In this document: positions 1-14,618 of the stretch, one piece after another
How the letters are laid out: each line of letters begins with the position of its first letter
Numbering within the stretch: the stretch's first letter is position 1
IMG/VR virus record: IMGVR_UViG_3300046514_000687
Span: 1-64,000 of that record
Reading direction: 5' to 3' (one strand)
DNA length: 64,000 nt
From: a virus
The notes under the pieces: model-generated
Told to the model about the DNA's origin: nothing
What the model saw: the letters and a program-made list of their open reading frames with translations, nothing else
Databases searched by the model: none
Position numbers and translations under genes: made by a program

Positions 1-3
1 CAG

Positions 4-747
4 ATGGCCAGCGAGCTGCAGGGCCACGATAGCCTCGCCAAGTACACCCGCCCGGACGGCACGCTGGAGCCCGCGCGCCAGGCCCTCCACGACGCGATCG
101 TCGCCCGCGCTCTCGTCGGCGTCCCCCGCCAGGCCCACCCCACCGCCTACCTCATCGGCGGCGGCGCCGCCGCGGGCAAGAGCACGATGCTGAACAGCGG
201 CGCGGTCACGGTCCCCGCGCGCGGGGCCGCCGTATACGTCGAGCCGGACGAGGTGAAGAACGACCTGCCGGAGTTTAAGGCCGGCCTCGCCAAGCGGGAC
301 CCGAACATCGCCGGCTACGTCCACGCGGAGTCCAGCAACATCGGCAAGCGCGTCCTGAGCGAGGCCATCGGCCGCCACACCGACCTGATCCACGACGCCA
401 TCCACAACACCTCGCTCGGCGCGGTCGAGCAGCGCGTCGCGCGCATGCGCGCCGCCGGCTACCGCGTCGAGGCCAGCTACGCGACCGTCCCGATCCAGAC
501 GGCCGTCGACCGCGCCCAGGCCCGCGGCGAGCGCACCGGCCGCTTCGTCCCGCTCGACGCCATCATGCAGGGCCACGCCGGCGTCGCCGCCATGTTCCCG
601 TCGCTGCTGAGCCACCACGTCTTCGACAAGGTGACGCTGCACGAGACCAGCGGCACGACGCCCCACCTGCTCGCCAGCCAGACCAACGGCCACACCGTCA
701 TCCACGACAGAGCCGGCTACGCGGCGTTCCTGGCGCGGAAGGGCTGA
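4..747 (+). CDS. Zeta-toxin-like P-loop kinase domain; probably the C-terminal part of a longer ORF truncated at the window edge
   Basis: Walker A GGGAAAGKST, then PDEVKxxLPE, VHxESS, GY.V, and RAxxRGERTGRFVP, the layout of zeta/PezT-like kinases. The frame is open to base 1. Confidence 0.75.
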   Translation: MASELQGHDSLAKYTRPDGTLEPARQALHDAIVARALVGVPRQAHPTAYLIGGGAAAGKSTMLNSGAVTVPARGAAVYVEPDEVKNDLPEFKAGLAKRDPNIAGYVHAESSNIGKRVLSEAIGRHTDLIHDAIHNTSLGAVEQRVARMRAAGYRVEASYATVPIQTAVDRAQARGERTGRFVPLDAIMQGHAGVAAMFPSLLSHHVFDKVTLHETSGTTPHLLASQTNGHTVIHDRAGYAAFLARKG

Positions 748-929: not shown

Positions 930-1073
930 GTGCGGGGCTTCTGGCGCGTGGTCTGGTGCCACCTGGTCCACTCCTGGGACTGGCAGAATCCCCGATGGCG
1001 CGAGGACTACCAGGCGCTGCTCTACCGCTGCCCCTACTGCCGTTGTGAGCGGCAGGCGATGGTGTGGCGCTGA
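930..1073 (+). CDS. Small Cys/His-rich protein (47 aa; C..H.W...CPYC)
   Basis: GGAGG at 920-924, GTG start, and a TGA overlapping the next ATG (1071-1075). Confidence 0.5.
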   Translation: MRGFWRVVWCHLVHSWDWQNPRWREDYQALLYRCPYCRCERQAMVWR

Positions 1074-4000
1074 TGGCCGACCAGTATCTCTTTGACTTAA
1101 CAGTCGGCGGGTACATCGACCCCGCCGGTCGCCCCGTGCCCGTTACAGCGATCAACGCCGCCGCCAGCGAGGTGCAGAGCCGCGCCCGCGACGAGATGGC
1201 CGCCCTCACCAAGCGGCTCGTGGACGGCGACCTCACCCCCGCCCGCTGGGAGCGCCAGGCCAGCGCCATGCTGCGCGAGGCGCACCTCACCGCCACCGCC
1301 CTCGCCGTCGGCGGCTGGGCCCAGGTGCCCGCCTTCGAGGACGACCTGGTGGACCGGCTGACCGGCGAGTTCACCTACCTCGCCGGCTTCCGCACCGCGC
1401 TCCCTGATCTAACGGAAGGCCAGATCGCCGCCCGCGCCGACCTGTACGCCAGCAACGTCTGGGCGACCTACCAGCAGATGCGCGGCGCGCTGGCCGAGCA
1501 GACCGGCATGGACGAGGAGCGCAACGTGACCGACCCCGCGGCCGAGTCCTGCGCCGAGTGCGACGACCTGGAGGCTGACGACTGGGTACCACTGGACACA
1601 CTGCCCGAGGTCGGTGAGCGTGCCTGTCTCGCCCGCTGCCGGTGCACGATCGAGTACCGCGCCGCCGGCGTGGAGGAGAAGCGAGTGCTGGTCGGCGCGG
1701 GCGTGGCGCGGGCCTACAACCCGGACGAGCCGCGCCTCCCCGCCGGTGGTCCCGGCGGTGGGGAGTGGACGAGCGATGGCGGGAGCGACACGGGTGCGCC
1801 TGACTCTCTGGCCACACTCGCCTCAGCGCTCAGTCCGGCGAGCGCTGAGTCCTGGCTCCAACGCGACGCTCACGGCGGGCTGCGCCCCGTAGATGTGGGA
1901 GCCTTGGCGACTACACGGGAGAGCCGGGGCTTCATCGGCACGAGCGGCGCTGGCTACGAGATCACAAGTCAGGCAGTTCACAACCAGATCGGCCAGGAGC
2001 TTGCTGCGGCACACGGCTACCACGGCATAGAGTCGCCCATGACAACCGTGCTGGAGGCCGGCCACCTGATTCGCTACGTCTCGCTGCCCAAGCAGCACGA
2101 GCTGGGCGTCGAGCTGCACGCGCCGCCTTCCGACTCGCAGTGGAGTACGCTGCGGCGGTTTGCAACCAGCCTGCCAGACGCTCGCTTTTTGTTCGATGTT
2201 TACCCCCCTAAGGGAGCGCCCGACTATGCGGCGCGGTTCGGGATCGGAGAGGGGTTCGGCAAGCTGCGCGCCGCGGCAGAACGCGCCTACGGGCCGGTTA
2301 ATGGCGCAGCCCGCGGCCTCTTCCGCGCCTGGGATGAGGCGCAGCACCCCCGCGAGCCCGCCGGCACGAGCGCCGGCGGGGAGTTTGCGGGTGGAGAAGG
2401 TGGCGGCTTGCCTGCGACCGCTCCGGCGACCGGCGAGCGCGACATGGCTGCCAGCCGGTACATCGAGGCCGCCGTTCCGGTCGGGGATGTGGAAGACGAC
2501 ACTCAGACCGGCATCGTTCGGTATGCGGTCGCGCAGGAGCTAGCCTCTGACGTCTACGCTGCCGTGGGCGCCAAGGGGGCGTTCTCGGATCTCGCGGATG
2601 CGACGAAGTGGGTCGACGACCAGATTCGCACCTGGGAAGGCAGCAGTCGGGCAACGCGCATCCTTGGGTTGCACGAGGCGGTGCGCCAGAAGTTCGACCT
2701 GCCTGAGTCCACCATGCGCGGCGTAGCCGACCTCCCGCTTACGCCATCGCCGGAGCAGCGCGCTCTGGTCGATGCCATCTACCGGAATACTCAGGCCCAC
2801 CTCGCCGCGCTCGGGATCAAGGAGCTGACGCTCGTTCGGGGCGGGCTGGTGCAAGATGCGCTGCTACCGCCCGGCATCCGGCACGGCGGTCAGGGCGACC
2901 ACGTGGACGGCACCGCGCAGCTCGCTCCGCTGAACTCCTGGACGAGCCAGCCGCACTGGGCCGAGCGGTTCGCTAACGCCCACGGCCTCGCGCAGGCGCC
3001 GCAAGCCGGCCAACAGCGCACCGCCGTCGTCCTCCAGGCGCGCGTACCAGCAGCGCGCATCTTCAGCACCGGCCGCACCGGGCTCGGCGCTCTCGTTGCT
3101 CACGAGTACGTGGTTCTCGGCGGCCCAACTCCCACGCGCTTCCACGCTGAGGAGCTAAGCGGCGGGTTCCAGTATCGCGCAGCTCGGGCTACGGGGCTTG
3201 TGCCTGTGGATGCGGATCCGGAAAGCCTGGACTGGCTTCGCTGGGCAGTGGCCTACCAGGTGGCTCAGGAGCGCGCCTTCAACCCGGACCAGCCGCGCGA
3301 CGACCAGGGGCGCTGGACGACTAGCGACGACAATAGCCGCGTGAGCGACCTGGCGCCGCCCGGCGAGCCGCCGCCCCACACCGTCAGCAACGACGAGCTG
3401 CGGGGTCTGATCGACTGCGTCTCCGGGGAGTACGCCGACATTCGCCAGCAGGCCGAGCGCGACGACACGGACGCTTCCGCCCGCGAGTACCAGCGCCTCG
3501 GCGACTACCTCCACGCGCTCTACGCCGAGGCGAACCGGCGCGACTTGTTCAAGGCCTACAACCCTGACCAGCCCCGCGACGAGCACGGCCGGTGGACTGA
3601 TAGTGGTGGAACCGTAGTCCCTACGCGCGAGCCGAGCCAGGATGCTGCGGTGGAGGCAGCCCTGTTTGCAGGTGCGTCTACTTCTAGCACCGAGCTAGAA
3701 AAGATCGCTGCCGCGGCGATCGCTGCGCGCATCGAAGCCAACCCCGCTCACGACTCCGCGGCCTTCGACGCAATCTTCCAGAGCCCCTACGACTACGTGC
3801 GGTCGGTCGAGCATGCGTGGCAGCTCGACGCGCAGAGCGTCACGTCTATGCGGTTTGCGGAAGCCGTCGCTCACGCCCTGGATCTCCCGCCGGCGGCCGT
3901 GAGTGCGATGGGTAACCGGGCCGACGCGGGACGCAACGCCGTGCCGATGATGGAGGTGGCTCGCGCGACCTACGCGGAGACCCAGGCGCAGCTCGCCGCT

Positions 4001-7000
4001 GCGGGCCTCCCCAGCGTGGTCCTCTATCGCGGTGTGAACCACTACCACGATGAACTCCCCGCCGGGCTGAAACCCGGCGTGAGTGATAGCCACGCCGATG
4101 TGTCATTCACGGCCCGCCCTCTGACGTCCTGGAGTTCGGACCCCACCGCTGCCGAGCTGTTTGCCCTCCGCCAGCGCAGCTCCGACCGCACCGGCTATGT
4201 CCTGTCTGCACGCGTGCCCGCCAGCCGGATCTTCTCCACCGGGCGCAGCGGGTTTGGCGAGCGCATCGAGCGCGAGTTCCTGGTACTCGGCGGCTCCATG
4301 AAGGCTCGCGCGCACACAGCCCGGACGGCCGGGGGGCAGATTGATGTGACGCGCGCTGCCCCTCGTGAGCCCGTGCTAAACATCGACGCAGACCGCGAGA
4401 ATGCTGACTGGCTGCGCTGGGTCGCGCGTGTGCGCCAGGCGGCCCCCCGCGCCTTTAACCCCGTCGAGCTGGAGTGGGACCCCGCGCAGCACCCGCGTAT
4501 CCCCGCCGGCCAGCCCGGCGCGGGCGAGTTTATCGGCGGCACGGCCAGCGCGCCCGAGGACCCGGCCGCTCGCGCCTGGTACCAGCGCGGCCACGAGGGC
4601 CTGCCCACCCAGCCCGAGGTCAACCGGCTGGCGCGCGAGGTCAGCCGCGGTCTGCGCGCCCAGGTCCCCACCGGCCCCAAGCCGCTGGACCTGATGAACA
4701 TCTGGCACAGCGGCGCGCGCAGTGCCAAGTACCGCGACCTGCGCTCGGCCGTCCAGCAGGAGTTTCACTTGCCTGGCGACTGGGCCACCCACCGTGACCC
4801 CGCTCAGTACAAGCCGCTGGTCCGGGCGATCTACGCTGCTACGCAAAACCAGCTCGCCGCGGCCGGCATCAAGGACGTCACGCTCTACCGCGGCCTGCTG
4901 CTCGGCAACGACACGCTGCCGCCCGGCGTCGGCCCCGGCCGCTCCGGCGGCCACGCCGATACCGTCCACCAGGGGCGCCCGCTGGCCTCCTGGACCAGTA
5001 ACCCCGCCATCCCGCCGGGATTCGCTAAAACCCACCACAAGGACGGCATGACCGCGGTGATCCTCCAGGCGACCTTTCCCGCCAGCAAGGTGTTCAGCAC
5101 CGCCCACACCGGCATCGGCCTGCTGCGCAAAGAGGAGTTCGTTATCCTTGGCGGGCCCCAGCACGTCCGTCTGCATACCCAGGATGCGCGCGGGCGCTGG
5201 GACCTGTATAAGAGCCTGATAGACCACAGTGCGGACGTGGAGAATGACGCCTGGCTCCACGAGGACGACCCCGAGCCGTTGCTGGTCGAGGATCCCGACG
5301 GCACCGTCCACCCCGTTGCTACCCCCGCAGAGCTGGCCGCGGCGCTGGCGGGGATGGGCCTGACGCTCGCGGAGTTCCTCCAGACGCCCGCCGCAGCAGC
5401 GATGCCTGCCAGCCTGCGACCCGCACCGGGTAAAGCGGTCAAGTACTCGCCCGACCAGCCCCGCGACGAACACGGGCGGTTTGCCACAGGTAGTAGCGGC
5501 GATGGCGAAGCCACCAAGCCCAAGCACGACCCGCCGGTGATCGGCGCCGGCCGCGACGCCACCACGCGCCCCGACCCCGAGTACGACCGCCTCCACGCCG
5601 ACCTGCTCCGCCACACCAGCGGCCACCGCATGGACGGCGCGCGCATCGCCACGACGCAGTGGCTGGAGAAACAGCGCGCTGCGGCCGGGATCCCGGACAA
5701 GGGCCAGAAGGTCGCGCTGTGGGGGCTTGCCTGGAACCAGCTCCCCTCAGTAGCCGTCGCACTGGCTCGCTTCTACCAGCAGTACCCTCTAGTTGCGGCC
5801 GACCTGAAGACGGTAGATATCCTGCCCAACCGTCAGTTCCAGGGCGGCACCAAGCAGGTGGTGGCCCATGCCTGGCCCGACGGCCCCGTCAGCCACCTAG
5901 AGGGCAACGGGCTGCGGATGGCACAAGTCGACGACCACTCGCGCGTCCGCAACGGCTGGTTCCCCGAGGGCACGGACAAGGTGCAGGGCATCCTCTGGCA
6001 CGAGCTGGGGCACGTCCTGAACCACCACCTGGACCGCGTAATGGCGACCCGTCCGTTCAACGACCGTGCCGCGGAGGACTGGCGCGACTTCCAGAAGCAC
6101 GAGATGAGCAGCGACCGCCTGTCGCAGTACTCGGTGTCCAAGACCGACCCGAAAGCGAAGTGGCGCGAGGGGTTCGCGGAGTCTTTCGCCCAGTACAACC
6201 TAGCATCTACCGACAAGTGGACCGCCCCGACCTTTAAACTCGCGGCCCTCCTGGAGCATTCCTGGGTCGCGCCGCTGGTCGGCCACCGCAGCAAGAGCGT
6301 GGGCTGGTTCTTCACTCGCGAGTGGGACGAGGCGCAACACCCGCGCGAGCCGGCCGGTAGCCCTCAAGGGGGCGAGTTCGCCGGCGGCGCTGAAGCCGCA
6401 GCCGCTCTCCTCGCTCAGCGCAAGCCCGACCCCTCTGCGCTCCGGGAGACTATCGCCGCAGCCGACGCGGCGGCTGCCGCTGCAGCCGCCCTGAACGGCC
6501 AGTCCGTCGACGACTACAAAGCCTCGGTCGAGGCCAACCTGCGCCGCCTGTATGATGAAGCTGAGATCCACATCCTCCTGCGCGCCGACCGCGTCGGCAA
6601 GCTGCTCAGCGACGGTGAGCTGAAGACCGCCTTCGAGGTGTCTCGCCTGCGGAAGCAGGACGAGAACTACATGGCGTCGCGCAGCCAGATCGAGCAAACC
6701 ATGTTCGGCCTGCCCGCCGATACTCCCGTGGATAACCGCCCAATCTACGGGTCGCTCGCCACCCCCGGCGTCGGGCCGGACATTATCGAGCACGACAGCT
6801 ACGGCGGCACGACGCTGGAGCTGAAGCCTTCCGTCAAGGACCGCGCCACCGCGCTGTGGGGCGACAGCTTCGAGCGCAAGCAGGCTACCGCTGACGGCTC
6901 GGGCTGGTATGCGGCCTCGCCGGCCCCGGTACACGACCCGAAGTGGTACTCGGCGGGCACCTACGCGCGTATTCCGGACGTCGGCGCCGCGGCTGACCCC

Positions 7001-7426
7001 GCGCGCCTGGACACCGTGTCTAACATGAAGGGCGCGGCCTACATCGAGACGCAGATCCACGGCGACGCAGCCCACCCTGCCGTGTCCGTTAGCGATATTG
7101 CCCGCGTCGTCTTCGATAAGCCGCCCTCGGCCAGTGCGGTCAGGGCGCTGGATAAGCTGGGCATCGCCCACGCCTCCTACCAGTTCGAGGCCGAGCCATA
7201 CCCGCCGCACACCGGCCGGCCAGCGGCGCAGGAGTTCGGCCGCCTCCGCGACGCCTACGCCTACCACGGACGCGAGCTGACTATGCTGGCGAAGTTCGGC
7301 GAGCACTACGAGCACTGGACCGGCGACCCGAAGTGGAAGGAGAAGTCCATGAAGTGGCGTGATGACATGCGCCGCTGGCAGGGGGTGACCGAGGCCAGCT
7401 TTGCCAAGTGGGGAGAGCCGCTCTGA
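1073..7426 (+). CDS. MuF-like minor head polyprotein 1: MuF-like domain, unknown domain, ART, small helical domain, ART, ART, HExxH metallopeptidase, DUF3626-like domain
   Basis: The N-terminal domain ends in SCAEC...LP..G.R.CLARCRC, the MuF-type Cys signature. Seven linker repeats, three L[YV]RG...SW[TS]...xxE.VLGG motif sets, WHELGH...EGFAES, and RPIYG...YG...GDS...YIETQIHG. Start placed at the TGATG overlap. Confidence 0.8.
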   Translation: MADQYLFDLTVGGYIDPAGRPVPVTAINAAASEVQSRARDEMAALTKRLVDGDLTPARWERQASAMLREAHLTATALAVGGWAQVPAFEDDLVDRLTGEFTYLAGFRTALPDLTEGQIAARADLYASNVWATYQQMRGALAEQTGMDEERNVTDPAAESCAECDDLEADDWVPLDTLPEVGERACLARCRCTIEYRAAGVEEKRVLVGAGVARAYNPDEPRLPAGGPGGGEWTSDGGSDTGAPDSLATLASALSPASAESWLQRDAHGGLRPVDVGALATTRESRGFIGTSGAGYEITSQAVHNQIGQELAAAHGYHGIESPMTTVLEAGHLIRYVSLPKQHELGVELHAPPSDSQWSTLRRFATSLPDARFLFDVYPPKGAPDYAARFGIGEGFGKLRAAAERAYGPVNGAARGLFRAWDEAQHPREPAGTSAGGEFAGGEGGGLPATAPATGERDMAASRYIEAAVPVGDVEDDTQTGIVRYAVAQELASDVYAAVGAKGAFSDLADATKWVDDQIRTWEGSSRATRILGLHEAVRQKFDLPESTMRGVADLPLTPSPEQRALVDAIYRNTQAHLAALGIKELTLVRGGLVQDALLPPGIRHGGQGDHVDGTAQLAPLNSWTSQPHWAERFANAHGLAQAPQAGQQRTAVVLQARVPAARIFSTGRTGLGALVAHEYVVLGGPTPTRFHAEELSGGFQYRAARATGLVPVDADPESLDWLRWAVAYQVAQERAFNPDQPRDDQGRWTTSDDNSRVSDLAPPGEPPPHTVSNDELRGLIDCVSGEYADIRQQAERDDTDASAREYQRLGDYLHALYAEANRRDLFKAYNPDQPRDEHGRWTDSGGTVVPTREPSQDAAVEAALFAGASTSSTELEKIAAAAIAARIEANPAHDSAAFDAIFQSPYDYVRSVEHAWQLDAQSVTSMRFAEAVAHALDLPPAAVSAMGNRADAGRNAVPMMEVARATYAETQAQLAAAGLPSVVLYRGVNHYHDELPAGLKPGVSDSHADVSFTARPLTSWSSDPTAAELFALRQRSSDRTGYVLSARVPASRIFSTGRSGFGERIEREFLVLGGSMKARAHTARTAGGQIDVTRAAPREPVLNIDADRENADWLRWVARVRQAAPRAFNPVELEWDPAQHPRIPAGQPGAGEFIGGTASAPEDPAARAWYQRGHEGLPTQPEVNRLAREVSRGLRAQVPTGPKPLDLMNIWHSGARSAKYRDLRSAVQQEFHLPGDWATHRDPAQYKPLVRAIYAATQNQLAAAGIKDVTLYRGLLLGNDTLPPGVGPGRSGGHADTVHQGRPLASWTSNPAIPPGFAKTHHKDGMTAVILQATFPASKVFSTAHTGIGLLRKEEFVILGGPQHVRLHTQDARGRWDLYKSLIDHSADVENDAWLHEDDPEPLLVEDPDGTVHPVATPAELAAALAGMGLTLAEFLQTPAAAAMPASLRPAPGKAVKYSPDQPRDEHGRFATGSSGDGEATKPKHDPPVIGAGRDATTRPDPEYDRLHADLLRHTSGHRMDGARIATTQWLEKQRAAAGIPDKGQKVALWGLAWNQLPSVAVALARFYQQYPLVAADLKTVDILPNRQFQGGTKQVVAHAWPDGPVSHLEGNGLRMAQVDDHSRVRNGWFPEGTDKVQGILWHELGHVLNHHLDRVMATRPFNDRAAEDWRDFQKHEMSSDRLSQYSVSKTDPKAKWREGFAESFAQYNLASTDKWTAPTFKLAALLEHSWVAPLVGHRSKSVGWFFTREWDEAQHPREPAGSPQGGEFAGGAEAAAALLAQRKPDPSALRETIAAADAAAAAAAALNGQSVDDYKASVEANLRRLYDEAEIHILLRADRVGKLLSDGELKTAFEVSRLRKQDENYMASRSQIEQTMFGLPADTPVDNRPIYGSLATPGVGPDIIEHDSYGGTTLELKPSVKDRATALWGDSFERKQATADGSGWYAASPAPVHDPKWYSAGTYARIPDVGAAADPARLDTVSNMKGAAYIETQIHGDAAHPAVSVSDIARVVFDKPPSASAVRALDKLGIAHASYQFEAEPYPPHTGRPAAQEFGRLRDAYAYHGRELTMLAKFGEHYEHWTGDPKWKEKSMKWRDDMRRWQGVTEASFAKWGEPL

Positions 7427-9528
7427 TGGTGGCCGTGATCGGGCGCCACGGCGAGGAGGCGCTGCTGATTAGCCTGGAGGACGCGCCGCCCGGCGAGGAC
7501 CACGGCTTCGTGGTATACCCGGCGAAGTTCCGCGCCGGCCCCGTCGTTGGCGTCAGCAGCATTCTTGCGCGCGACCCCGACTGGGAGTGGGTGGATCCGC
7601 CGGACCACGCCGCGGCTCAGGAGCTGCTGGCAGTCCTGCCGCACCCGCCAGTCGCGCCGGCCGCTGAGAAGGCCGTCACCCGCTACAGCCCGGACCAGCC
7701 CCGCGAGCCCGCCGGCTCGCCTGAGGGCGGCCAGTTCGCCGGCGACGTGGGCGGGGCGGGTGGTAGTGCGGCTGACCACCCGCAAGGGCCTACTATTCCA
7801 GAGGCCGGCACCGCTAACGTGGCGGTCAGCCAGCAGGTCACGAGCGAGGACTGGAACGAGGATCCCCGCGAGTACGAGGCCGAGCGCCTAGACCGCCTGC
7901 GCTGGATGTTCGCCGAATCTGGCCTGGAGAACCCCGACCGTGCCGAGACGGTGAGCCAGAACGTTAAGGACATGTGGCACCACGACCACCTAGCGCAACT
8001 CACCTCAGACTTTCGCGCCGCCGCGGCTGCGGAGTTCGGCCTGCCCGGCGCCAAGGAGACGGTCGAGCAGTTCCACAGCGAGTACTGGACGGAGCTGAAG
8101 GCTACCGCGCGCGGGATCTACGACGAGACGCAGCGCCAGCTCCTCAACAACCACGGCGACCTCAGCCACCTGACCCTCTTCCGCGGCATGCAGGTGCCGG
8201 ATGCAGCTGTACCTACCAGCCTGCGCGGGAGCGACGTACACGCCAACGCCACGCTCCAGCTCAAGCCGCTGGACTCCTGGACGACTGACCCCGCGGTGGC
8301 CCATCGCTTCGCTACCGGCACCGACGTCAGTACCGGCATCCGTCCCGGCCACACCGGAGTAGTCCTGCAGGCTCGCTTCCCCATCCAGCGTATCCTGGGG
8401 TGGGACAAAACCGGGATCGGCTTCGGCGGGGAGGCTGAGGTGGTCGTGCTCGGCGGCCCCGCTCATGTGCGGGTGCACCGGACGACCAGCGGGGGCACGG
8501 TAGACGTTACGAAGGCCGCGCCGCTCGACCTGGGCGAGTTCGGCTGGGAGCGCCACAACGACAACTGGCTCTGCACCAACACCGCACTCCAGCGCGCCCT
8601 GCCCGGCTTTGTCCGCGCCTGGGACGAAGAGCAGCACCCCCGCGAGCCGGCGGGGACCTCAGCCGGTGGCGAGTTTGCCAGCGGCGCGGGTGGCAGTTAC
8701 GAGGGCTACCCGGACGGGCCGCGGGACAGCTTCCTGCCGATCAATACTATCGCTACAGCGATGGAGTCAGCTGACCCGTCGCTGTCACCCGGCGATGCCG
8801 TCCAGGCGGCCCAGGACGTGATGCATCGCTGGAACGCTAACCCCAAGGACCCCGCATCCATGCTCTTGATGCTGCAAGCCGCCGAGGTCTTTGGGCTGAC
8901 TGATGCTGAGCCTACGCCGCACAAGCTTCCAATCCCCGAGATTGCCGATCTGCTCATTGCTCCGGTCACCGCGGCCGGTCTGAAGGCGGTGCTGAAGCCG
9001 ATGTACGACGCCACGCAGGCGCACCTGGCGAAGCGCGGGATCGCCGGGGGCACCCTGTATCGCGGCATGATCCTGCCCAGCGCCACGGTCCGGGCGATGG
9101 AGGCCGCGGGCGGGACGCTCCGGCAGCGCGCTCTTTCCTCCTGGACGAGCGACGCTTCCGTCGCTCGCGAGTATGCGGATCCGAAGTATCACCACAACAC
9201 GGACCCGGACATGGTCCCGGTGATCGTGAGTGCCCACGTACCCGCGTCTCGCGTCCTTTCCTCGCCGCAGACGGGTTTCGGCTATGACATGTCAGCCGAG
9301 ATCGTAGTTCTGGGAGGGCCCATTCCCGTGCACGTCCACCGCGTTACGCCCGCCAAAACCGCCGCCTCGGACGGAGCCGCCGCCCGGCCCGTGATCGTCG
9401 AGGACGACCGCGCCGCCGAGTGGCTTCACGCGATGCGCGACCGCCCCCCGGTGCGCTCGTTTACTCGCGAGTGGGACGAGAGCCAGCATCCGCGCGTCCC
9501 CGCCGGCAGCCCCGAGGGCGGGGAGTTT
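1709..9528 (+). repeat. Ten dispersed protein-level linker repeats of two types: [KR]-A/Y-(Y/F)NPDQPR..GR[WF] and R-[AE]-WDE.QHPR.PAG...GGEF
   Basis: Copies begin near 1709, 2324, 3272, 3551, 4448, 5432, 6311, 7669, 8611 and 9451. Confidence 0.9.
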
Positions 9529-10455
9529 GGTGGAGGGGAGGGTAGTCCCCAGGCTGCTGCCGTGCCCTACCAGGGACCGGAACCCCCGTACAGCGAGCGC
9601 ACTGACCCGATCCTGTGGAACCCCGACGGCGGCGAGCCGCTCTACGCCGGCGATATGCGAAGCTGGGGCGAGGCTAACTACGAGCGCCTGGCCGACGAGC
9701 TGCAGAAGGACCCGACGATGCCGTTCGACCCGCCCGGCGGCAAGGAGACCGCGCGCGGGATGTTCCGCAGCTACGCGACAGGCTGGAACGGGGGCGGCGC
9801 CGGCCACGCCGAGCTGATGGCCGTTGCGACGGAGTTCGGCCTTTCGACCGCGGACGTATATCCTGACCCGTTCCACCAAACCTTTGACCCCGCCACGAAA
9901 CCGTGGGACCGGGCACGGATGGCCTGGGCGCGCGCCACCTACGACGCTACTCAGGCAGACTTCAAGGCGCAGGGTCTGAAGGAAGTCACGCTCTATCGGG
10001 GGACTGCCATGATGCCTGACAAGCTCCCCCCCGGCGTGCACGAGAGCCGGGCGCCCGCGAATGCCGACGTGCAGATGCAGCCCCTATCATCCTGGACCAG
10101 CAACCCGCAGGAAGCACGCAGGTTCGCCATCAAGAGTCGCGGCGGCGACCCGACTCCGGTGGTTCTCGCGGCGCGCTTCCCCGTCTCGCGGATCTTCTCG
10201 ACGGTACGCACCGGACCCGGCACCTTCCCCGAGCGCGAGTACGTCGTGCTTCGGGGGAAGACGACCGCGCGTCTGCACGTCGACGTGGAGCACCTAGACC
10301 GCGCCATCACCGGAGGCCCCCTGCCCGTCGTGACCGTAGACGCGACCCGCGAGGACATGAACTGGCTGCACTGGCTATACGGCCGCCCCGCGCCGGTGCC
10401 GCCCTTCGAGCCAGACCGCCCGAATGGTACGATGGACGGAGGAGGCGCCCGATGA
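7426..10455 (+). CDS. Polyprotein 2: ~80-aa N-terminal domain plus three linker-delimited ART modules
   Basis: ATG overlaps the previous TGA (7424-7428). Three linker repeats and three R-S-E motif sets: LFRG/DSWT/EAE, LYRG/SSWT/SAE, LYRG/SSWT/ERE. Confidence 0.8.
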   Translation: MVAVIGRHGEEALLISLEDAPPGEDHGFVVYPAKFRAGPVVGVSSILARDPDWEWVDPPDHAAAQELLAVLPHPPVAPAAEKAVTRYSPDQPREPAGSPEGGQFAGDVGGAGGSAADHPQGPTIPEAGTANVAVSQQVTSEDWNEDPREYEAERLDRLRWMFAESGLENPDRAETVSQNVKDMWHHDHLAQLTSDFRAAAAAEFGLPGAKETVEQFHSEYWTELKATARGIYDETQRQLLNNHGDLSHLTLFRGMQVPDAAVPTSLRGSDVHANATLQLKPLDSWTTDPAVAHRFATGTDVSTGIRPGHTGVVLQARFPIQRILGWDKTGIGFGGEAEVVVLGGPAHVRVHRTTSGGTVDVTKAAPLDLGEFGWERHNDNWLCTNTALQRALPGFVRAWDEEQHPREPAGTSAGGEFASGAGGSYEGYPDGPRDSFLPINTIATAMESADPSLSPGDAVQAAQDVMHRWNANPKDPASMLLMLQAAEVFGLTDAEPTPHKLPIPEIADLLIAPVTAAGLKAVLKPMYDATQAHLAKRGIAGGTLYRGMILPSATVRAMEAAGGTLRQRALSSWTSDASVAREYADPKYHHNTDPDMVPVIVSAHVPASRVLSSPQTGFGYDMSAEIVVLGGPIPVHVHRVTPAKTAASDGAAARPVIVEDDRAAEWLHAMRDRPPVRSFTREWDESQHPRVPAGSPEGGEFGGGEGSPQAAAVPYQGPEPPYSERTDPILWNPDGGEPLYAGDMRSWGEANYERLADELQKDPTMPFDPPGGKETARGMFRSYATGWNGGGAGHAELMAVATEFGLSTADVYPDPFHQTFDPATKPWDRARMAWARATYDATQADFKAQGLKEVTLYRGTAMMPDKLPPGVHESRAPANADVQMQPLSSWTSNPQEARRFAIKSRGGDPTPVVLAARFPVSRIFSTVRTGPGTFPEREYVVLRGKTTARLHVDVEHLDRAITGGPLPVVTVDATREDMNWLHWLYGRPAPVPPFEPDRPNGTMDGGGAR

Positions 10456-10703
10456 CGCAGTACGTCTGTCCCATCTGCTACGGCTGCACGCGCTTCCGCG
10501 ACGTGCCGGCCGGCCAGGACCGGCTCTGCTGCACGGCCTACCCCGCCGGCATCCCCGAGGCCATTCTGTTCAGCCAGGCGGACCACCGCCAGCCCTACGC
10601 CGGCGACGGTGGCCAGCAGTTCGACCCCGCTGATGCCGCCGGCGCCGCCTACGCCGAGACGGTCTTTAACCCCGAGCCGGTGAACGTAGACGCGCCGCCG
10701 TGA
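10452..10703 (+). CDS. Small Cys-rich protein (CxxC...C.AYP.GIP..I.....DH..P..GD.G..F), putative immunity protein
   Basis: ATGA overlap with the last ART, a strong GGAGGAGG RBS, and a TGGTACGAT extended -10 just upstream. The immunity role is inferred. Confidence 0.6.
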   Translation: MTQYVCPICYGCTRFRDVPAGQDRLCCTAYPAGIPEAILFSQADHRQPYAGDGGQQFDPADAAGAAYAETVFNPEPVNVDAPP

Positions 10704-10981
10704 GTGCGGCCGGCGCGCTGGAGTGGATCGGCTACCTCACCGTCAGCCGCGTCTGCGAGGCCGGCCGCCCGGTCCTCCGCTACGAGTGGCGCGGCGGGCC
10801 GCAGATCCTGGTGGACCTGGAGCTGTTCACGAAGATGGAGCCCGGCTTCTGGACCGGCCACGTCCCGCCCCACCTTCGGGAGCGCGCCAGGCTGGGACCG
10901 TTCGCGGTGCGGGTGGTCGGCTACGACGCGGGCTGCGACTGGTACGTGCTGATGCGCGAGGACGGCGATGAGCCAGCCTGA
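10700..10981 (+). CDS. Hypothetical protein
   Basis: GTGA overlap with the previous stop; plausible amino-acid composition. Confidence 0.5.
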   Translation: MSAAGALEWIGYLTVSRVCEAGRPVLRYEWRGGPQILVDLELFTKMEPGFWTGHVPPHLRERARLGPFAVRVVGYDAGCDWYVLMREDGDEPA

Positions 10982-11147: not shown

Positions 11148-11200
11148 CCCCGCCGGTGGTCCTGTGTGCGCGTTGTGCTATGCTGGTCGGCAGTGCAGCG

Positions 11201-11286
11201 TGCGGGATGGCGCAGTGGCAGCGCAGCAGTGGCAGCGCAGTGGGCTCATAACCCACAGGTCGCCGGTTCGAATCCGGTTCCCGCAC
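11201..11286 (+). tRNA. tRNA-Met(CAT), initiator-like, with a 14-nt tandem duplication in the D-arm; possibly a pseudo-tRNA
   Basis: Acceptor TGCGGGA/TCCCGCA, anticodon arm GTGGG-CTCATAA-CCCAC, T-arm GCCGG-TTCGAAT-CCGGT. GCAGTGGCAGCGCA is duplicated at 11212-11225 and 11226-11239. Confidence 0.8.
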
Positions 11287-11397: not shown

Positions 11398-11443
11398 GCC
11401 CACACCCGAGTCTTCGTGACTCGCGGGAGTGGGCTTTTTCTTT
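11398..11443 (+). terminator. Hairpin plus U-tract in the leader of the protease gene
   Basis: GCCCAC..CCCGAGTC-TTCGT-GACTCGCGGG.GTGGGC followed by TTTTTCTTT. Confidence 0.5.
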
Positions 11444-11454
11444 GGAGGGACGCC

Positions 11455-13386
11455 ATGCCCGTCGGCACGAGCCGCCGATCTACGCCGTACACCTCCCTCG
11501 CGGAGTGGCGCACGCTCGCCATCGCCGGGAAGGCGAACCCCGACACCGTCCTCCGCAAGGCCTACACCTGCGACAAGATCAGCACCGTCGACGCGGACAA
11601 GCGCCAGAAGCAGTTCACCATCTCCACCGCCAGCGTGGACCGCGAGGGCGACACTGTCGCCCCCGAGGGCTGGGTCCTCAACGACTATGAGCGGAACCCC
11701 GTCGTCCTCTGGGCCCACGACGGCGAGGCGCCCCCCATCGGGCAGACCATCCGCATGGGCGTGGACCAGGGCCGCAAGCTCGTGAGCGTCGCCCAGTTCG
11801 CCCCGCCCGAGGTCTACGCTTTCGCAGACACCATCTACCGCCTGATCGACGGCGGCTACATCCGCGCCGCTAGCGTGGGGTTCCTGCCTATCGAGTTCCA
11901 CTTCGACAATACCCGCCAGTCGGCGAGCGGCTTCCAGCCGCCCTGCAACTTCGTCCGGCAGAGCCTGCTGGAGTGGTCGGTCTGCCCGGTGCCGGCCAAC
12001 CCCGACTGCCTCCTCCAGGCCCGCAGCGCCGGTATCGACCTGGAGCCGCTGCTGGGTTGGGCCGAGCGCATCCTGGAGGAGGGCCACGGCGAGCCGGGCC
12101 TGTGGATCAGCCGCGGTCAGGCGGAGGCGGTCCACCGGCTGCTCGGCACTACCCACCTCTCCCTGCCGAGCTGGGATGCCGCGTGCCCCGCCGGCGGGGC
12201 GTCTGCTGACCCGTTTCGCCTGGACACCCTCACGGTAGACGGCGAGCCGGTGCTGGACCTCGTCGAGCGCGCGGCCAAGCCGAAGCCGGATCCCGAGGAC
12301 GCGCAGGAGCCGCCCGAGACACCTGGCGAGGCGCCGGACGCGGAGGATCAGGCCGAGGGCCCGGAGCCGACCGACGAGGAGGATCCCCGCAAGCCGAAGC
12401 CGAAGGCGGCGGAACGGGCCGCCGCAGACCCCGGCGACGAGGCGATCGAGAAGGACGCGGTGCTGCGCCCGTACCCGAACGAGCACGCCTGCCGCCTCGC
12501 CGACCCCGGCCAGTTCGACAAGTTCCGCCGCGGCACGCGCGACCACGACGGCAAGCGCTACAGCGTCATCTACGCCCGGCCCAAGAGCGGCGACGGCGGC
12601 TGGCAGGAGCAGGCGTACCGCTACGCGACGGGCACCTGGGACGCCAAGGCTGCTCGCGCCCACTGCGACAGCCACGACGGCAGCTTCGAGGCCGCCAAGA
12701 CGGCGAACGCCGAGGCCCCCGTCACGAAGGGCGACGCGCCCCCGGTCGAGGACCCCGCTCAGGTCCCCGACTCGCTGGAGCAGCTGGCGGACTTCATGGC
12801 CGCTGACACACCCCTGGCGGACGCGGACGAGCCGGCTGCTCCAGTCACGCGCGCGACGGCCTACCCCGGCGAGCCGGGAGAGCCGACGGACCCCGAGGAT
12901 ACGGCGGAGGGGCCCGAGACGCCCGGCACCGACCCGGAGGACGCGGCCGAGACCCACGCCCGCAAGGCGCTGGTGACGGCGCAGACCGCCGCCACCCACC
13001 TCCAGAAGGCCGTCGCCGGCATGCGCCAGAAGGCCGCCGCGGGGCTCGACCCCAGCCACCACCTGCACATCGCCAAGGGCCTGATGGACCTGGCCGCCGC
13101 GCATGCGGGCATGGCACACGGCGCGATCAACTGTGCCTGCGGGGCGCCGATGGGCCGCCCCTTCCAGGCCGCCACCGACCCGCCCGTCACGCGCGCCGAA
13201 GAGCCCCCGCCGGAGCGGCGAGTCGTGCTCGTCGACCACACCCCCGAGCCGCCGCCGGCCGCCGCGCCTGACGACGAGGACGTGCTCGCGGACATCGCGC
13301 CCGAGGAGCTGCGCGCCATGGTTCAGGCTGGCGTACAGGCCAGCATCGAGGCTCGCCAGCGGCAAGCCGCCGGCCGAGTGGATTAG
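11455..13386 (+). CDS. HK97-family prohead maturation protease with a long acidic/Pro-rich C-terminal extension
   Basis: STASVDREGD, NPVVLWAH, PIG, ASVGF, LLEWSVCPVPANP. GGAGG precedes the ATG at 11455, and the gene lies directly upstream of the capsid gene. Confidence 0.92.
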   Translation: MPVGTSRRSTPYTSLAEWRTLAIAGKANPDTVLRKAYTCDKISTVDADKRQKQFTISTASVDREGDTVAPEGWVLNDYERNPVVLWAHDGEAPPIGQTIRMGVDQGRKLVSVAQFAPPEVYAFADTIYRLIDGGYIRAASVGFLPIEFHFDNTRQSASGFQPPCNFVRQSLLEWSVCPVPANPDCLLQARSAGIDLEPLLGWAERILEEGHGEPGLWISRGQAEAVHRLLGTTHLSLPSWDAACPAGGASADPFRLDTLTVDGEPVLDLVERAAKPKPDPEDAQEPPETPGEAPDAEDQAEGPEPTDEEDPRKPKPKAAERAAADPGDEAIEKDAVLRPYPNEHACRLADPGQFDKFRRGTRDHDGKRYSVIYARPKSGDGGWQEQAYRYATGTWDAKAARAHCDSHDGSFEAAKTANAEAPVTKGDAPPVEDPAQVPDSLEQLADFMAADTPLADADEPAAPVTRATAYPGEPGEPTDPEDTAEGPETPGTDPEDAAETHARKALVTAQTAATHLQKAVAGMRQKAAAGLDPSHHLHIAKGLMDLAAAHAGMAHGAINCACGAPMGRPFQAATDPPVTRAEEPPPERRVVLVDHTPEPPPAAAPDDEDVLADIAPEELRAMVQAGVQASIEARQRQAAGRVD

Positions 13387-13397
13387 CGGGAGGACGC

Positions 13398-14618
13398 ATG
13401 AACAAGGCCGAGCTGGCTGAGCTGATCCGCGACGTCTGCGGCAAGGTCGTGGAGGAGAAGTGGCAGACGATCGTGTCTGCCGATGCCGTCGGAAACGTGA
13501 CCCGCTACGGGCCGCCGCTGCTGGGCGCGGTGATCGACGAGACCCAGCCCTACTCCCAGGCGATCCAGCGCGTCAGCGCCAGCGAGCAGCGCGGCCTGCG
13601 CGCCGGCCGCCTGATTCGCTGCCTGGCCGCGGCGCGCGGCATCCCCGGCCTCGCCGCGGGGCACGCCCGCAAGGCCTTCCAGGACGAGGCGATGGCCAAG
13701 GCCCTGGAGGCCGGCGACGCGGTCGGCGGCGGCTTCCTGGTCCCGCCTGACTACTCCAGCGACATCATCGAGCTGCTGCGCCCCGTGGCGCGCGTCCGCG
13801 CCGCCGGGCCGACCCTGCTGCCGATGCCGGTCGGCACCGTTAGCATCCCGAAGGTCACCAGCGCCAGCACCGCGACCTACACCGGCGAGGGCCAGAACAT
13901 CCCGATCAGCCAGCCCGGCTTCGGGATGGTCACGCTCACCTGGCGCAAGCTGACCGCGATGGTGCCGATCAGCAACGACCTGATCCGCTTCGCGACCCCG
14001 AACGCCGACGCCTTCGTCCGCGACGACCTGGTCCGGGCGCTGGCGCTGCGCGAGGACCTCGCCTTCCTGCGCGGCGACGGCACCCAGTACACGCCCAAGG
14101 GCTTCCTGCACTGGGCACCCGCGGCGACCAACCTCCTGCCGGCCAACGCCACGATCAGCCTCACCAACGTGACGATCGACCTCGGCTCCATGCTGAACGT
14201 GATGGACGAGGCGAACATCCAGATGGTGCGGCCCGCCTGGTTCATGGCGCCGCGCACCAAGACCTTCCTGATGACCCAGCGCGACGGCCTGGGCAACTTC
14301 GCCTGGCGCACCGAGATGGCCGCCGGCACGCTGATGGGGTTCCCGTTCTACACCACGACGCAGATCCCGACGAACCTCGGCGTCGGCTCCAACGAGTCGG
14401 AGCTGTACCTGGCCGAGATGACGATGGCCGTCCTCGGCGAGTCCGAGCGGCTGCTCATCGACGCCAGCACCGAGGCGGCCTACTGGGACGGCACCCAGCT
14501 CCAGTCCACCTACTCGCGCGACCAGACCGCCATTCGCGCCATCGCCGAGCACGACTTCGCGATGCGCCACGACCAGGCCATCGTGGTCCTGCAGGCCGTC
14601 AAGTGGGGCGCCCCGTAA
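13398..14618 (+). CDS. HK97-fold major capsid protein
   Basis: KAL...GGFLVP....IIELLR, GEG, KL..MVPISN.LI, GDGT..PKG, LMGFP; 406 aa. Confidence 0.93.
   Translation: MNKAELAELIRDVCGKVVEEKWQTIVSADAVGNVTRYGPPLLGAVIDETQPYSQAIQRVSASEQRGLRAGRLIRCLAAARGIPGLAAGHARKAFQDEAMAKALEAGDAVGGGFLVPPDYSSDIIELLRPVARVRAAGPTLLPMPVGTVSIPKVTSASTATYTGEGQNIPISQPGFGMVTLTWRKLTAMVPISNDLIRFATPNADAFVRDDLVRALALREDLAFLRGDGTQYTPKGFLHWAPAATNLLPANATISLTNVTIDLGSMLNVMDEANIQMVRPAWFMAPRTKTFLMTQRDGLGNFAWRTEMAAGTLMGFPFYTTTQIPTNLGVGSNESELYLAEMTMAVLGESERLLIDASTEAAYWDGTQLQSTYSRDQTAIRAIAEHDFAMRHDQAIVVLQAVKWGAP

What the first reader, a model, noticed from the sequence alone, without database searches (positions are those of the whole stretch)
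3175..10380. Each ART is followed by a second K/R site and a conserved acidic-Trp peptide: candidate cleavable in-cis inhibitor
After every ART core: YRAARA..VPVDADPESLDWLRW; VTRAA..LNIDADRENADWLRW; YKS.LIDHSADVENDAWLH (with a longer helical extension); VTKAA..GWERHNDNWLC; AKTAA..VIVEDDRAAEWLH; LDRAI..VTVDATREDMNWLHW. The peptide follows all 6 ART modules and none of the non-ART modules. In five cases it is bracketed by basic-residue sites, and in the sixth it is C-terminal. Inference: it is a fused immunity/pro-peptide that keeps the ART off in the producing cell and is removed during capsid maturation, arming the toxin only in the virion. This would explain how six toxins coexist with so few separate immunity genes.
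Basis: partly seen in the sequence, partly recalled or inferred. Interest (0 to 1): 0.88.

Follow-up and report, generated by a model that had tools for sequence, protein, structure and literature searches.

The report
Detachable partner peptide of phage ADP-ribosyltransferases
The short acidic-tryptophan peptide after each toxin-like enzyme (ADP-ribosyltransferase) in this phage's head polyproteins is the signature of an unnamed mini-domain that other phages encode as a tiny separate gene beside the same enzyme, so it is a real partner of the enzyme, and a built-in off-switch is plausible but unproven.

Summary
All six ART modules in the window carry a W-L-centred acidic peptide 15-20 residues past the ART core. 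So does a seventh ART in the portal polyprotein outside the window. None of about ten non-ART modules has it.

The peptide lies outside the canonical ART fold, between two predicted disordered stretches. It is modelled with high local confidence, which fits docking but does not show it. It is the start of a widespread, unannotated ~60-aa element with the motif Phi-x-Phi-D-x-D-x-x-N-A-D-W-Phi-[KR], which I call "NADW".

An unbiased DNA-pattern scan of viral contigs gave 79 matches:
- 22 are fused behind an ART of this family.
- 44 are separate small ORFs immediately after an ORF that ends in such an ART.

Bacillus phages SP-15 and HSE3 have a NADW-then-ART gene pair.

Three things are not shown: inhibition, occupancy of the NAD cleft, and excision by the prohead protease.

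Against a strictly ART-specific plug:
- About three quarters of related ART modules lack the element.
- NADW is also fused to GIY-YIG, UDG and Mrr-type enzymes.
- It also occurs alone in bacterial genomes.

An earlier scan report on other DNA (e1-5929455) reached the same reading.

The parts
1064..7426 (+). Head polyprotein 1 (2120 aa). Order: MuF-region N-terminal module, unknown module, ART1, small helical module, ART2, ART3, HExxH module, DUF3626-like module. Modules are separated by HPRxPAGxxxGGEF or NPDQPRDxxGRW linkers.
7408..10455 (+). Head polyprotein 2 (1015 aa): a ~96-aa leader, then ART4, ART5, ART6. Its start overlaps the end of polyprotein 1 by 19 nt.
2387..3148 (+). ART1 module (N-terminal helical part plus R-S-E core; VRG, SWT, AHE)
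3173..3190 (+). First basic junction after ART1 (YRAARA), in the spacer between the core and the peptide
   Evidence: a cleavage role is inferred
3197..3247 (+). NADW-type peptide 1 (LVPVDADPESLDWLRWA)
   Evidence: (8.1 bits with the external profile)
3617..4318 (+). ART2 module (YRG, SWS, ERE). This is the module modelled by AlphaFold2.
4346..4354 (+). VTR junction after ART2. It lies in model residues 240-250, where pLDDT is under 50.
4373..4423 (+). NADW-type peptide 2 (VLNIDADRENADWLRWV), the canonical copy. It forms a helix with pLDDT about 90 in the model.
   Evidence: (16.1 bits, best hit in the genome)
4532..5176 (+). ART3 module (YRG, SWT, KEE)
5216..5266 (+). NADW-type peptide 3 (LIDHSADVENDAWLHED)
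5318..5416 (+). Helical extension after peptide 3 (ATPAELAAALAGMGLTLAEFLQTPAAAAMPASL). It aligns to the C-terminal half of free-standing NADW proteins, so ART3 carries the full-length element.
   Evidence: profile positions 24-56, 6.6 bits
7738..8481 (+). ART4 module (FRG, SWT, EAE). It is the only module that passes Pfam DRAT.
8506..8514 (+). VTK junction after ART4
8530..8580 (+). Degenerate peptide 4 (LGEFGWERHNDNWLCTN)
   Evidence: not found by the external profile
8677..9342 (+). ART5 module (YRG, SWT, SAE)
9385..9435 (+). Degenerate peptide 5 (RPVIVEDDRAAEWLHAM)
9529..10281 (+). ART6 module (YRG, SWT, ERE)
10327..10377 (+). Degenerate peptide 6 (VVTVDATREDMNWLHWL), 25 residues from the C-terminus of polyprotein 2
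3272..3316 (+). Linker after peptide 1 (ERAFNPDQPRDDQGRW), with the second basic junction R|AF
4448..4531 (+). Linker after peptide 2 (PRAFNPVELEWDPAQHPRIPAGQPGAGEF). It is disordered in the model.
8614..8676 (+). Linker after peptide 4 (VRAWDEEQHPREPAGTSAGGEF)
9466..9528 (+). Linker after peptide 5 (FTREWDESQHPRVPAGSPEGGEF)
1..747 (+). Zeta-toxin module, the C-terminal end of the portal polyprotein. That protein starts at genome position 106928 and also holds ART7 with its peptide, outside the window.
11416..13386 (+). Prohead protease (S78-like) with a long scaffold-like tail that carries three PVT[KR] sites. It is the candidate processing enzyme.
13398..14618 (+). HK97-fold major capsid protein. 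NVTRY lies at residue 34 and ARKAFQDE at residue 92, near the expected delta-domain boundary.

Best explanation
The acidic-Trp peptide is the N-terminal signature (Phi-x-Phi-D-x-D-x-x-N-A-D-W-Phi-[KR]) of an unannotated mini-domain, here called NADW. The domain is about 60 aa when complete.

It is a dedicated partner of one clade of phage R-S-E ADP-ribosyltransferases. In this phage it is fused behind all seven ARTs of that clade. The copy after ART3 is full length, those after ART1, ART2 and ART7 are motif-only, and those after ART4-6 are degenerate. In many other phages it is a separate, translationally coupled small gene next to the ART gene.

Proposed mechanism: the element is tethered by a flexible spacer, folds back onto its ART and occludes the conserved catalytic cleft. 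This would keep the ART modules latent while the polyproteins are made and loaded into proheads. Cuts at the flanking basic junctions would turn the cis element into a dissociable one: VT[KR]|A-type before the peptide and [KR]|A[FYW][ND] at the linker after it. The prohead protease is the likely agent. The peptide would then be lost on unfolding and dilution during ejection.

Shown: the motif, its position outside the ART fold, and its fused and split forms beside ART genes. Predicted: that it is modelled confidently, which is consistent with docking back on the ART. Inferred: inhibition, the docking site, cleavage and release.
For: 1. The peptide is ART-specific within the polyproteins: 7 of 7 ARTs against 0 of about 10 other modules.

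2. It lies outside the ART fold.
- Matches to C3, VIP2, iota, Certhrax and Vis ARTs (Z 5-6) end at model residue 238-240.
- 61 of 304 related ARTs end at a protein C-terminus right after the core.

3. Two AlphaFold2 models of modules only 24% identical place the motif with high confidence after a weakly modelled spacer.
- ART2: spacer residues 240-250 have pLDDT under 50, and the helix at 260-275 has pLDDT about 90.
- L065: the motif block has pLDDT 85, with a beta-bridge.

4. The unbiased DNA-pattern scan of viral contigs gave 79 matches.
- 22 are fused after an ART.
- 44 lie in a separate ORF starting within 200 nt after an ORF that ends with an ART. Many starts overlap the stop codon, ATGA-style, as in L027 and L032.
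- Only about 8 look like chance.

5. In the split loci the gene order is MuF-ART, NADW, then scaffold or protease, then capsid. That is the immunity-gene position described for MuF toxins (PMC5576092).

6. Bacillus phages SP-15 and HSE3 have a NADW-then-ART pair. In SP-15 the pair is bracketed by annotated terminators.

7. The motif is far more conserved than the ART cores: 78% against 54% in P0004, and 92% against 64% in P0008. This argues for contact with a very conserved surface, and the catalytic cleft is the obvious candidate (inference).

8. A weak geometric hint comes from the structural alignments. Alignments to latent pertussis toxin S1 (6ro0_A) and oxidised EcPltA (4z9c_A) run out to the motif, reaching model 2 residues 303 and 302, the W of NADW. 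Alignments to the truncated active forms stop earlier. In latent S1 the C-terminus fills the NAD site (PMC9079181).

9. Precedents:
- Bsi blocks the prophage ART Bxa (PMC11699363).
- The N-terminal extension of Tri1 occludes Tre1.
- The MTX and pierisin linkers inhibit until proteolysis (PMC8120803).
Against: - No coordinates were obtainable, so the docking site is unknown. High pLDDT of a helix is not proof of docking.
- Only 73 of 304 related ART modules carry the element, and 170 internal ART modules go straight into a linker.
- NADW, with an equally conserved motif, is also fused behind LEM-3-like GIY-YIG, UDG and Mrr-type domains. It also stands at the N-terminus of NUDIX, HD, InPase, TopoIB, kinase-like and MuF proteins.
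- About 15 NADW genes in bacterial genomes have no ART of this family in the 8-kb locus.
- In SP-15 and HSE3 the pair is not in the head module. There a co-expressed inhibitor is harder to rationalise.
- In this phage the peptides are less conserved than the ART cores (18-33% against 38-43%).
- There is no proteomic evidence for any cleavage.
Confidence: 0.4

Rival explanations
1. Non-inhibitory coupler or adaptor. NADW binds the ART on a non-catalytic surface. The pair would work as a docking device that holds separately encoded cargo proteins to the MuF- or portal-anchored ART protein, like a non-covalent version of the polyprotein link. Alternatively it would act as a targeting or regulatory subunit that directs the ART to its substrate, for example DNA-bound proteins.
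For: - About 30 of 64 longer NADW proteins carry the element at their extreme N-terminus, ahead of typical cargo enzymes: NUDIX, HD, InPase, TopoIB, kinase-like and MuF.
- In all six viral or genomic loci with context, such proteins follow an ART-ending ORF: L029, L040, L043, L056, L082, L137.
- Fusions to DNA enzymes (GIY-YIG, UDG, Mrr) suit a general binding module.
- The SP-15 and HSE3 pair lies outside the head module.
Against: - Within polyproteins the covalent link already exists, so a coupler in cis has no obvious use. Yet it is kept on 7 of 7 ARTs.
- The 60-aa stand-alone form brings no cargo.
- The near-invariant polar motif (D, D, N, D, K) implies contact with a very conserved surface. 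Outside the active site such surfaces are rare at 25% ART identity (inference).
Confidence: 0.28
2. Capsid, DNA or ejection tether. NADW would be a small helical binding domain that anchors cut-off modules to the packaged DNA or the capsid interior, so that they stay in the head and leave with the DNA. In this reading it does not bind the ART at all.
For: - It occurs with nucleases, UDG, TopoIB and ParB-like domains.
- The C-terminal half resembles small helical binding domains. The villin-headpiece-like match has E 0.4-0.8.
- It sits in head-cargo polyproteins.
Against: - A general tether should follow other cargo modules too, but it follows 0 of about 10 in this phage.
- ART1, ART2 and ART7 keep only the N-terminal motif, without the helical half.
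- Pfam VHP finds nothing in five NADW-bearing records.
- It does not explain tight pairing with the ART outside head modules in SP-15.
Confidence: 0.12
3. Acceptor tag or pseudosubstrate. The motif would be the site that these ARTs recognise and ADP-ribosylate, in cis as auto-modification and in trans on NADW-tagged enzymes.
For: - Invariant polar residues surround the Trp.
- The same tag sits on many unrelated enzymes.
- Auto-modification is common among ARTs (general knowledge).
Against: - The most conserved basic residue is Lys, not Arg, although several cores have the Arg-type ExE motif.
- No data bear on modification.
- Host-encoded tagged nucleases would gain nothing from carrying a phage-ART target.
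Confidence: 0.08
4. Integral or obligatory structural piece of this ART subfamily. It would be needed for folding or activity and could be supplied in trans by fragment complementation.
For: - Fused and split forms both exist.
- The motif is modelled with high confidence, which is consistent with packing on the ART.
Against: - The canonical fold is complete without it.
- Most family members lack it.
- It occurs with non-ART proteins.
Confidence: 0.07

Closest known systems
MuF polymorphic toxins with a small downstream immunity gene; Bxa with its structural immunity protein Bsi (PMC5576092, PMC11699363)
   Same: - A head-module protein ends in an ART.
- A tiny ORF follows, translationally coupled, ahead of the scaffold, protease and capsid genes.
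- Bsi binds Bxa and is modelled in its active site.
   Different: - Here the small partner is fused in cis, seven times, inside cleavable polyproteins.
- NADW has no Pfam, PHROG or NCBIfam family. Relatedness to Bsi was not tested, because no Bsi sequence was to hand.
- NADW also occurs on non-ART proteins.
Protease- or reduction-released inhibitory segments of ART toxins: the MTX and pierisin-1 linker, the pertussis toxin S1 C-terminus, cholera toxin A1-A2 nicking (PMC8120803, PMC9079181)
   Same: - A segment directly C-terminal to the ART core keeps the enzyme latent until it is cut or released.
- Structural alignments of both models to latent S1 and PltA reach the motif.
   Different: - There is no sequence similarity.
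- Those toxins act on eukaryotic cells and are activated in the target or its gut. Here activation would be by a phage prohead protease inside the capsid.
- Occlusion is not shown here.
Tre1-Tri1 and TreX-TriX ART toxin-immunity pairs (PDB 6DRH, 8S2M; PMC8120803)
   Same: - An R-S-E ART is neutralised by a partner that inserts a short extension into the active site.
- These ARTs appear among the structural matches (Z 4.6-5.0).
   Different: - Tri1 is also an ADP-ribosylhydrolase. This phage has neither an ARH nor a macro domain.
- Delivery is by T6SS or Rhs, not by a virion.
Polyvalent proteins of phages (Iyer et al. 2017, PMC5512222; Iyer et al. 2022, PMC9503650)
   Same: Many disparate enzyme modules sit in giant head-associated proteins fused to MuF or portal. 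ARTs are the commonest modules, and processing by peptidases is proposed.
   Different: [quoted passage not shown] Here seven R-S-E ARTs are.
- My term searches of the two papers turned up no description of a peptide following the ART.

Membership tests
R-S-E clade ADP-ribosyltransferases (C3, VIP2, iota and Alt-like) | Arg on strand 1, an S-x-S motif, and a catalytic Glu in an [EQ]-x-E strand | tested here: met
   R, S-W-[TS] and E are invariant in all six window modules and across 25-40 relatives. The first residue of x-x-E varies: E in ART2, ART4 and ART6; A, K and S in ART1, ART3 and ART5.
R-S-E clade ADP-ribosyltransferases (C3, VIP2, iota and Alt-like) | ART fold | tested here: met
   Every top structural match of both models is an ART (Vis, VIP2, iota-like, Certhrax, C3, HopU1). 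Z is 5-6.2, rmsd 4-5 A, with 150-180 residues aligned. Z is modest, so this shows the fold, not the subfamily.
DraT (Pfam PF07357) | Score above the Pfam gathering cut-off over most of the model | tested here: inconclusive
   Only ART4 passes (33 bits against 25), and it covers only model positions 153-255 of 256. The other five modules give no hit.
Toxin-immunity pair of the MuF polymorphic-toxin type | A small gene adjacent to the toxin domain, co-oriented and coupled | tested here: met
   Met in relatives: 44 of 79 viral pattern matches, plus SP-15 and HSE3. In this window the element is fused, not separate.
Toxin-immunity pair of the MuF polymorphic-toxin type | The partner binds the toxin and neutralises it | not testable with these tools
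   The only evidence is confident modelling of the motif by AlphaFold2, which is indirect. Needs an assay.
Toxin-immunity pair of the MuF polymorphic-toxin type | The partner is specific to its toxin family | tested here: inconclusive
   Specificity is strong in phage contexts (66 of about 71 genuine matches). However, 9 of 64 longer proteins have NADW behind GIY-YIG, UDG, Mrr or unknown domains, and bacterial copies without an ART exist.
Autoinhibited ART toxins (pierisin/MTX linker, pertussis S1 C-terminus) | The segment after the core occupies the NAD or substrate cleft | not testable with these tools
   Model coordinates are not released. There is only a range-level hint from alignments to 6ro0_A and 4z9c_A.
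Autoinhibited ART toxins (pierisin/MTX linker, pertussis S1 C-terminus) | Activation by proteolysis at a defined site | not tested
   Candidate basic junctions lie in predicted disordered segments and are enriched in the head proteins. There is no proteomics.
Phage polyvalent proteins (Iyer 2017) | Several unrelated enzymatic domains in one head-associated polypeptide fused to MuF or portal | tested here: met
   The portal polyprotein runs portal, 2H-like, X, ART7, Zeta. Polyprotein 1 holds the MuF-region module, ARTs, an HExxH module and a DUF3626-like module. They lie next to the S78 protease and the HK97 capsid gene.
Villin headpiece or HeH-type mini-domain (for the C-terminal half of NADW) | A significant match to the family profile | tested here: inconclusive
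   PDB sequence hits to villin headpieces reach only E 0.4-0.8. Pfam VHP finds nothing in five NADW-bearing records.

The most novel reading that the evidence does not exclude
NADW would be a universal latency switch for virion-delivered ARTs. It would plug the catalytic cleft in cis or in trans, be cut loose by the prohead protease, and be shed on ejection, so that each toxin is armed only in the next host. The NADW copies fused to host nucleases (Mrr, GIY-YIG) or sitting beside them (GmrSD-like neighbour) would be the host's counter-move: a built-in anti-ART shield on defence enzymes that phage ARTs target.
Probability: 0.15. Interest if true: 0.88.

Novelty: new variant of a known kind. Interest (0 to 1): 0.68.

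Why it matters
Phage-packaged ARTs are thought to be common early-infection weapons. How a phage tolerates many of them during its own late gene expression is not known.

This work defines a discrete, testable element:
- It is a family of at least 428 sequence clusters, all labelled hypothetical.
- It travels with one ART clade, either as a fused peptide or as a tiny neighbouring gene.
- The family includes cultured Bacillus phages, so experiments are feasible.

If the element is an inhibitor, three things follow. It gives a minimal 15-20-residue ART-blocking peptide. It links capsid maturation proteolysis to toxin arming. It explains missing immunity genes in this clade. If it is a coupler, it is a new docking pair for loading cargo into capsids.

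Tried and rejected
- Complex prediction with ART2 core, NAD and the 50-residue peptide segment gave no verdict (score 0.00, controls not run). It counts neither for nor against binding.
The gene context of the 150 representative proteins, and of the non-ART NADW fusions, could therefore not be read.
- The search for homologous proteins with the ART2 module found one weak hit.
- The search for related loci in genome contigs failed or found nothing. In viral contigs it gave only 4 loci.
- tblastn of the ART2 module against cultured phages gave no match at 1e-6.
- A PDB sequence search with the ART profile gave nothing at E up to 1.
- Foldseek against the PDB gave nothing at E up to 0.001.
- A column-wise comparison of ART cores with and without the motif, meant to find a docking surface, gave only noise.
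- The ESM Atlas look-up of the free NADW protein gave no usable neighbours.
- Pfam, PHROGs and NCBIfam gave no family for the peptide or for the free protein.
- No ADP-ribosylhydrolase or macro domain was found in the phage record.
- The genome contigs pattern scan was mostly chance matches, as expected for 596 Gb.
- I rejected 'part of the linker or protease site only', because the element exists as its own gene beside ART genes outside any polyprotein.

Full report
**Setting**

The window is the first 64 kb of a 111,030-nt IMG/VR virus record with about 70% G+C. The ends of the record overlap by about 150 nt.

The head module contains:
- a portal polyprotein, genome 106928 to the record end, continuing into window 1-747;
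- polyprotein 1, at 1064-7426;
- polyprotein 2, at 7408-10455;
- an S78-like prohead protease with a scaffold-like tail, at 11416-13386;
- an HK97-fold capsid gene, at 13398-14618.

Modules are separated by HPRxPAGxxxGGEF or NPDQPRDxxGRW linkers.

**The observation**

Six paralogous modules, 31-39% identical, have invariant R, S-W-[TS] and E residues. Only ART4 passes Pfam DRAT. After each core there is a spacer of 14-18 residues holding a basic junction, then a peptide with an invariant W-L pair. A seventh ART of the family in the portal polyprotein has SPVDEDAVSADWLRV.

I built a profile only from motifs of other phages and scanned the six-frame translation of the whole genome. The peptides after ART2, ART7 and ART1 ranked first to third, and ART3 ranked sixth. 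ART4-6 were not detected, and no non-ART module scored. Three of the peptides are degenerate copies.

A possible eighth ART-like module sits in the portal polyprotein. It is short and resembles CT/TreX-type ARTs, but only at E about 0.5. It has no such peptide.

**Is the peptide part of the ART fold?**

No. The AlphaFold2 model of the ART2 module has pLDDT 82 and pTM 0.80, and shows:
- the fold over residues about 4-238;
- a segment at 240-250 with pLDDT under 50, which holds the VTR junction;
- a helix at 260-275 with pLDDT about 90, which is NADWLRWVARVRQ;
- a disordered linker.

All top matches to solved structures are R-S-E ARTs. Alignments to C3, VIP2, iota and Certhrax end at residue 238-240.

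A profile search of 1.84 billion representative proteins found 3743 relatives. Most are giant multi-module proteins. Among 304 ART domains in the best 150 proteins:
- 61 end at a protein C-terminus right after the core;
- 73 are followed by the motif;
- 170 run straight into a linker.

**What the peptide is**

Seventy-six instances give the consensus Phi-x-Phi-D-x-D-x-x-N-A-D-W-[LIP]-[KR]-[TR]. The motif is often followed by WDLP and a helical stretch of about 35 residues.

I scanned IMG/VR with a degenerate DNA pattern for D-x-D-x-x-N-A-D-W-x-K. The pattern says nothing about what lies upstream. It gave 79 matches. Classified with an ART profile:
- 22 are fused behind an ART in the same ORF.
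- 44 lie in a separate ORF that begins within 200 nt after an ORF ending in an ART.
- 2 are at a locus edge.
- 3 look genuine but have no ART detected upstream.
- About 8 look like chance.

The separate ORFs encode proteins of 55-130 aa that start 2-8 residues before the motif. A typical start is MxxNIDADLxNADWTKxxWDLP...GMSxxxFKxLPVYK. Starts often overlap the upstream stop codon.

In L027 the gene order is MuF, ART, NADW, scaffold, capsid. In L032 it is portal, MuF-ART, NADW, protease, capsid. This is the position where Jamet et al. placed presumptive immunity genes of MuF toxins (PMC5576092).

The free protein family has at least 428 clusters, all called hypothetical. It has no Pfam, PHROG or NCBIfam model.

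Two cultured Bacillus phages carry the reverse order:
- SP15_257 (69 aa) precedes SP15_258 (469 aa; ART at E 5e-55) by 7 nt, between annotated terminators.
- HSE3 gp022 precedes gp023 with a 1-nt overlap.

The long extension after ART3 in this window aligns to the C-terminal half of the free proteins. ART3 therefore carries a full element, and ART1, ART2 and ART7 carry only its N-terminal motif.

**Does it dock, and where?**

A second model was made of a distant fused homologue (L065, 24% identical to ART2). It has pLDDT 81.6 and again models the motif with confidence: the block has pLDDT 85, with a beta-bridge at Phi-x-Phi. The complex job gave no verdict.

The only geometric hint is at the level of aligned ranges. 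Structural alignments to latent pertussis toxin S1 (6ro0_A) and oxidised EcPltA (4z9c_A) extend to model residues 282 and 283 in model 1. In model 2 they extend to 303 and 302, the W of NADW. Alignments to the truncated active forms (7skk_A, 4z9d_A) and to C3, VIP2 and iota stop earlier. In latent S1 the C-terminus, residues 180-235, fills the NAD site (PMC9079181). With Z about 3 this is a lead, not a result.

**Cleavage**

VT[KR] occurs 10 times in the five head proteins against 2.0 expected; 1 of 2000 shuffles reached the observed count. [KR]A[FYW][NDQ] occurs 9 times against 0.67 expected. The sites include:
- the ART2 and ART4 junctions;
- most linkers;
- three PVT[KR] sites in the protease tail;
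- NVTRY and ARKAFQDE in the capsid N-terminal region.

Paralogy among the linkers inflates the counts. The protease and capsid sites are independent of that. Both junctions around peptide 2 fall in segments with pLDDT under 50. Processing by the prohead protease is plausible but inferred.

**Evidence that complicates the inhibitor reading**

A census of 64 longer NADW proteins gave:
- 25 with ART followed by NADW;
- about 30 with NADW at the extreme N-terminus of NUDIX, HD, InPase, TopoIB, kinase-like, MuF, DUF7669 or unknown proteins;
- 9 with NADW behind a non-ART domain: LEM-3-like GIY-YIG, UDG, Mrr_cat or unknown.

The motif is equally conserved in all three classes. Where context is known (L029, L040, L043, L056, L082, L137), the N-terminal type follows an ART-ending ORF.

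In bacterial genomes about 15 genuine-looking NADW genes have no ART of this family in the 8-kb locus. One lies next to a GmrSD-like gene and one after a PD-(D/E)XK gene. Two related ABC-F ATPases end in INLDEDPxNADW[LI]K.

In other phages the motif is more conserved than the ART cores. In this phage it is less conserved.

**Reading**

Firm: the peptide is a genuine, separable, ART-associated element of a new family.

Most likely, at about 0.4, it is an immunity-type latency element that covers the catalytic cleft and is released after proteolysis and ejection. This is by analogy with Bsi (PMC11699363), Tri1, MTX/pierisin and pertussis S1 (PMC8120803; PMC9079181).

Nearly as likely, at about 0.3, it is a non-inhibitory docking or targeting partner. 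Less likely readings are a DNA or capsid tether, an acceptor tag, or an obligatory structural piece.

**Earlier scan work**

A report on another genome (e1-5929455) describes a 'detachable partner peptide of phage ADP-ribosyltransferases' with the same fused and split logic. I could not check that it is the same motif. It is not independent evidence.

Noticed in passing
window 1-747, and genome 106928-111028 (outside the window): The record's ends overlap by about 150 nt with one amino-acid difference, so the genome is circularly permuted or terminally redundant. This reveals a third polyprotein: portal, then a 2H-phosphoesterase-like module (HCTL...HVTL), module X, ART7 with its NADW peptide, and a Zeta toxin.
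   Followed up: partly
genome 109325-109822 (L011:817-1314), outside the window: Module X of the portal polyprotein has R, S-A-S and E-A-E motifs. It weakly matches LT-IIB A chain and TreX ART toxins (E about 0.5). It may be an unrelated mini-ART, and it is not followed by a NADW peptide.
   Followed up: partly
L090:2838-4655 and L116:5609-7441 (bacterial MAG contigs): Two related ABC-F-type ATPases (two ABC_tran domains each) end in a tail that matches the NADW motif almost perfectly: INLDEDPxNADW[LI]K followed by basic residues. This is unexplained.
   Followed up: no
L164:6102-6620, L141:7730-7939, L128:2798-3508, L107:145-597: These are full NADW domains in bacterial genomes with no ART of this family in the locus. 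One follows a GmrSD-like (DUF262/Mrr_N) gene. One follows a PD-(D/E)XK gene plus an unknown 250-aa ORF. One is fused to an unknown 170-aa domain after a DUF1643 gene.
   Followed up: partly
L016:3431-3817, L035:2528-2911, L037:6828-7187, L053:3399-3758: A second, longer type of free NADW protein (120-129 aa). It has NADWPK[RQ] followed by a conserved C-terminal domain ending in WGVKATVVS. It is also placed directly after an ART-ending ORF.
   Followed up: no
window 1727, 2345, 3290, 3569, 4490, 5456, 6338, 7696, 8635, 9487 (linker starts): The inter-module linkers have counterparts in hundreds of unrelated polyvalent proteins. Examples are KYNRNHDxxGRF, GGPGSGNxGHxGxPGxxGGS and KHLxGxHDQxxHG.W. 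Other reports in this scan describe similar tags.
   Followed up: no
window 10452-10703 and 10700-10981: Two small ORFs follow polyprotein 2. The first is Cys-rich (CPICYGC...CC) and weakly hits a PHROG of unknown function. Their roles are unknown.
   Followed up: no
window 11200-11290: ARAGORN calls a 91-nt tRNA-like gene with an undetermined anticodon, just upstream of the protease gene.
   Followed up: no
window 5483-6337 and 6380-7423: There is an HExxH (HELGHVLNHH) module with no Pfam match, and a module that weakly matches DUF3626 (E 2e-4, below the cut-off) and phrog_8314. These are further cargo modules of unknown function.
   Followed up: no
alignment A5, profile positions 23-56: The C-terminal half of the free NADW proteins (SxEEFxxxLKxxGMSxxxFKxLPVYK) resembles the villin-headpiece signature and a kinetoplastid bL28m segment (E 0.016-0.8). 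Pfam VHP does not detect it.
   Followed up: partly
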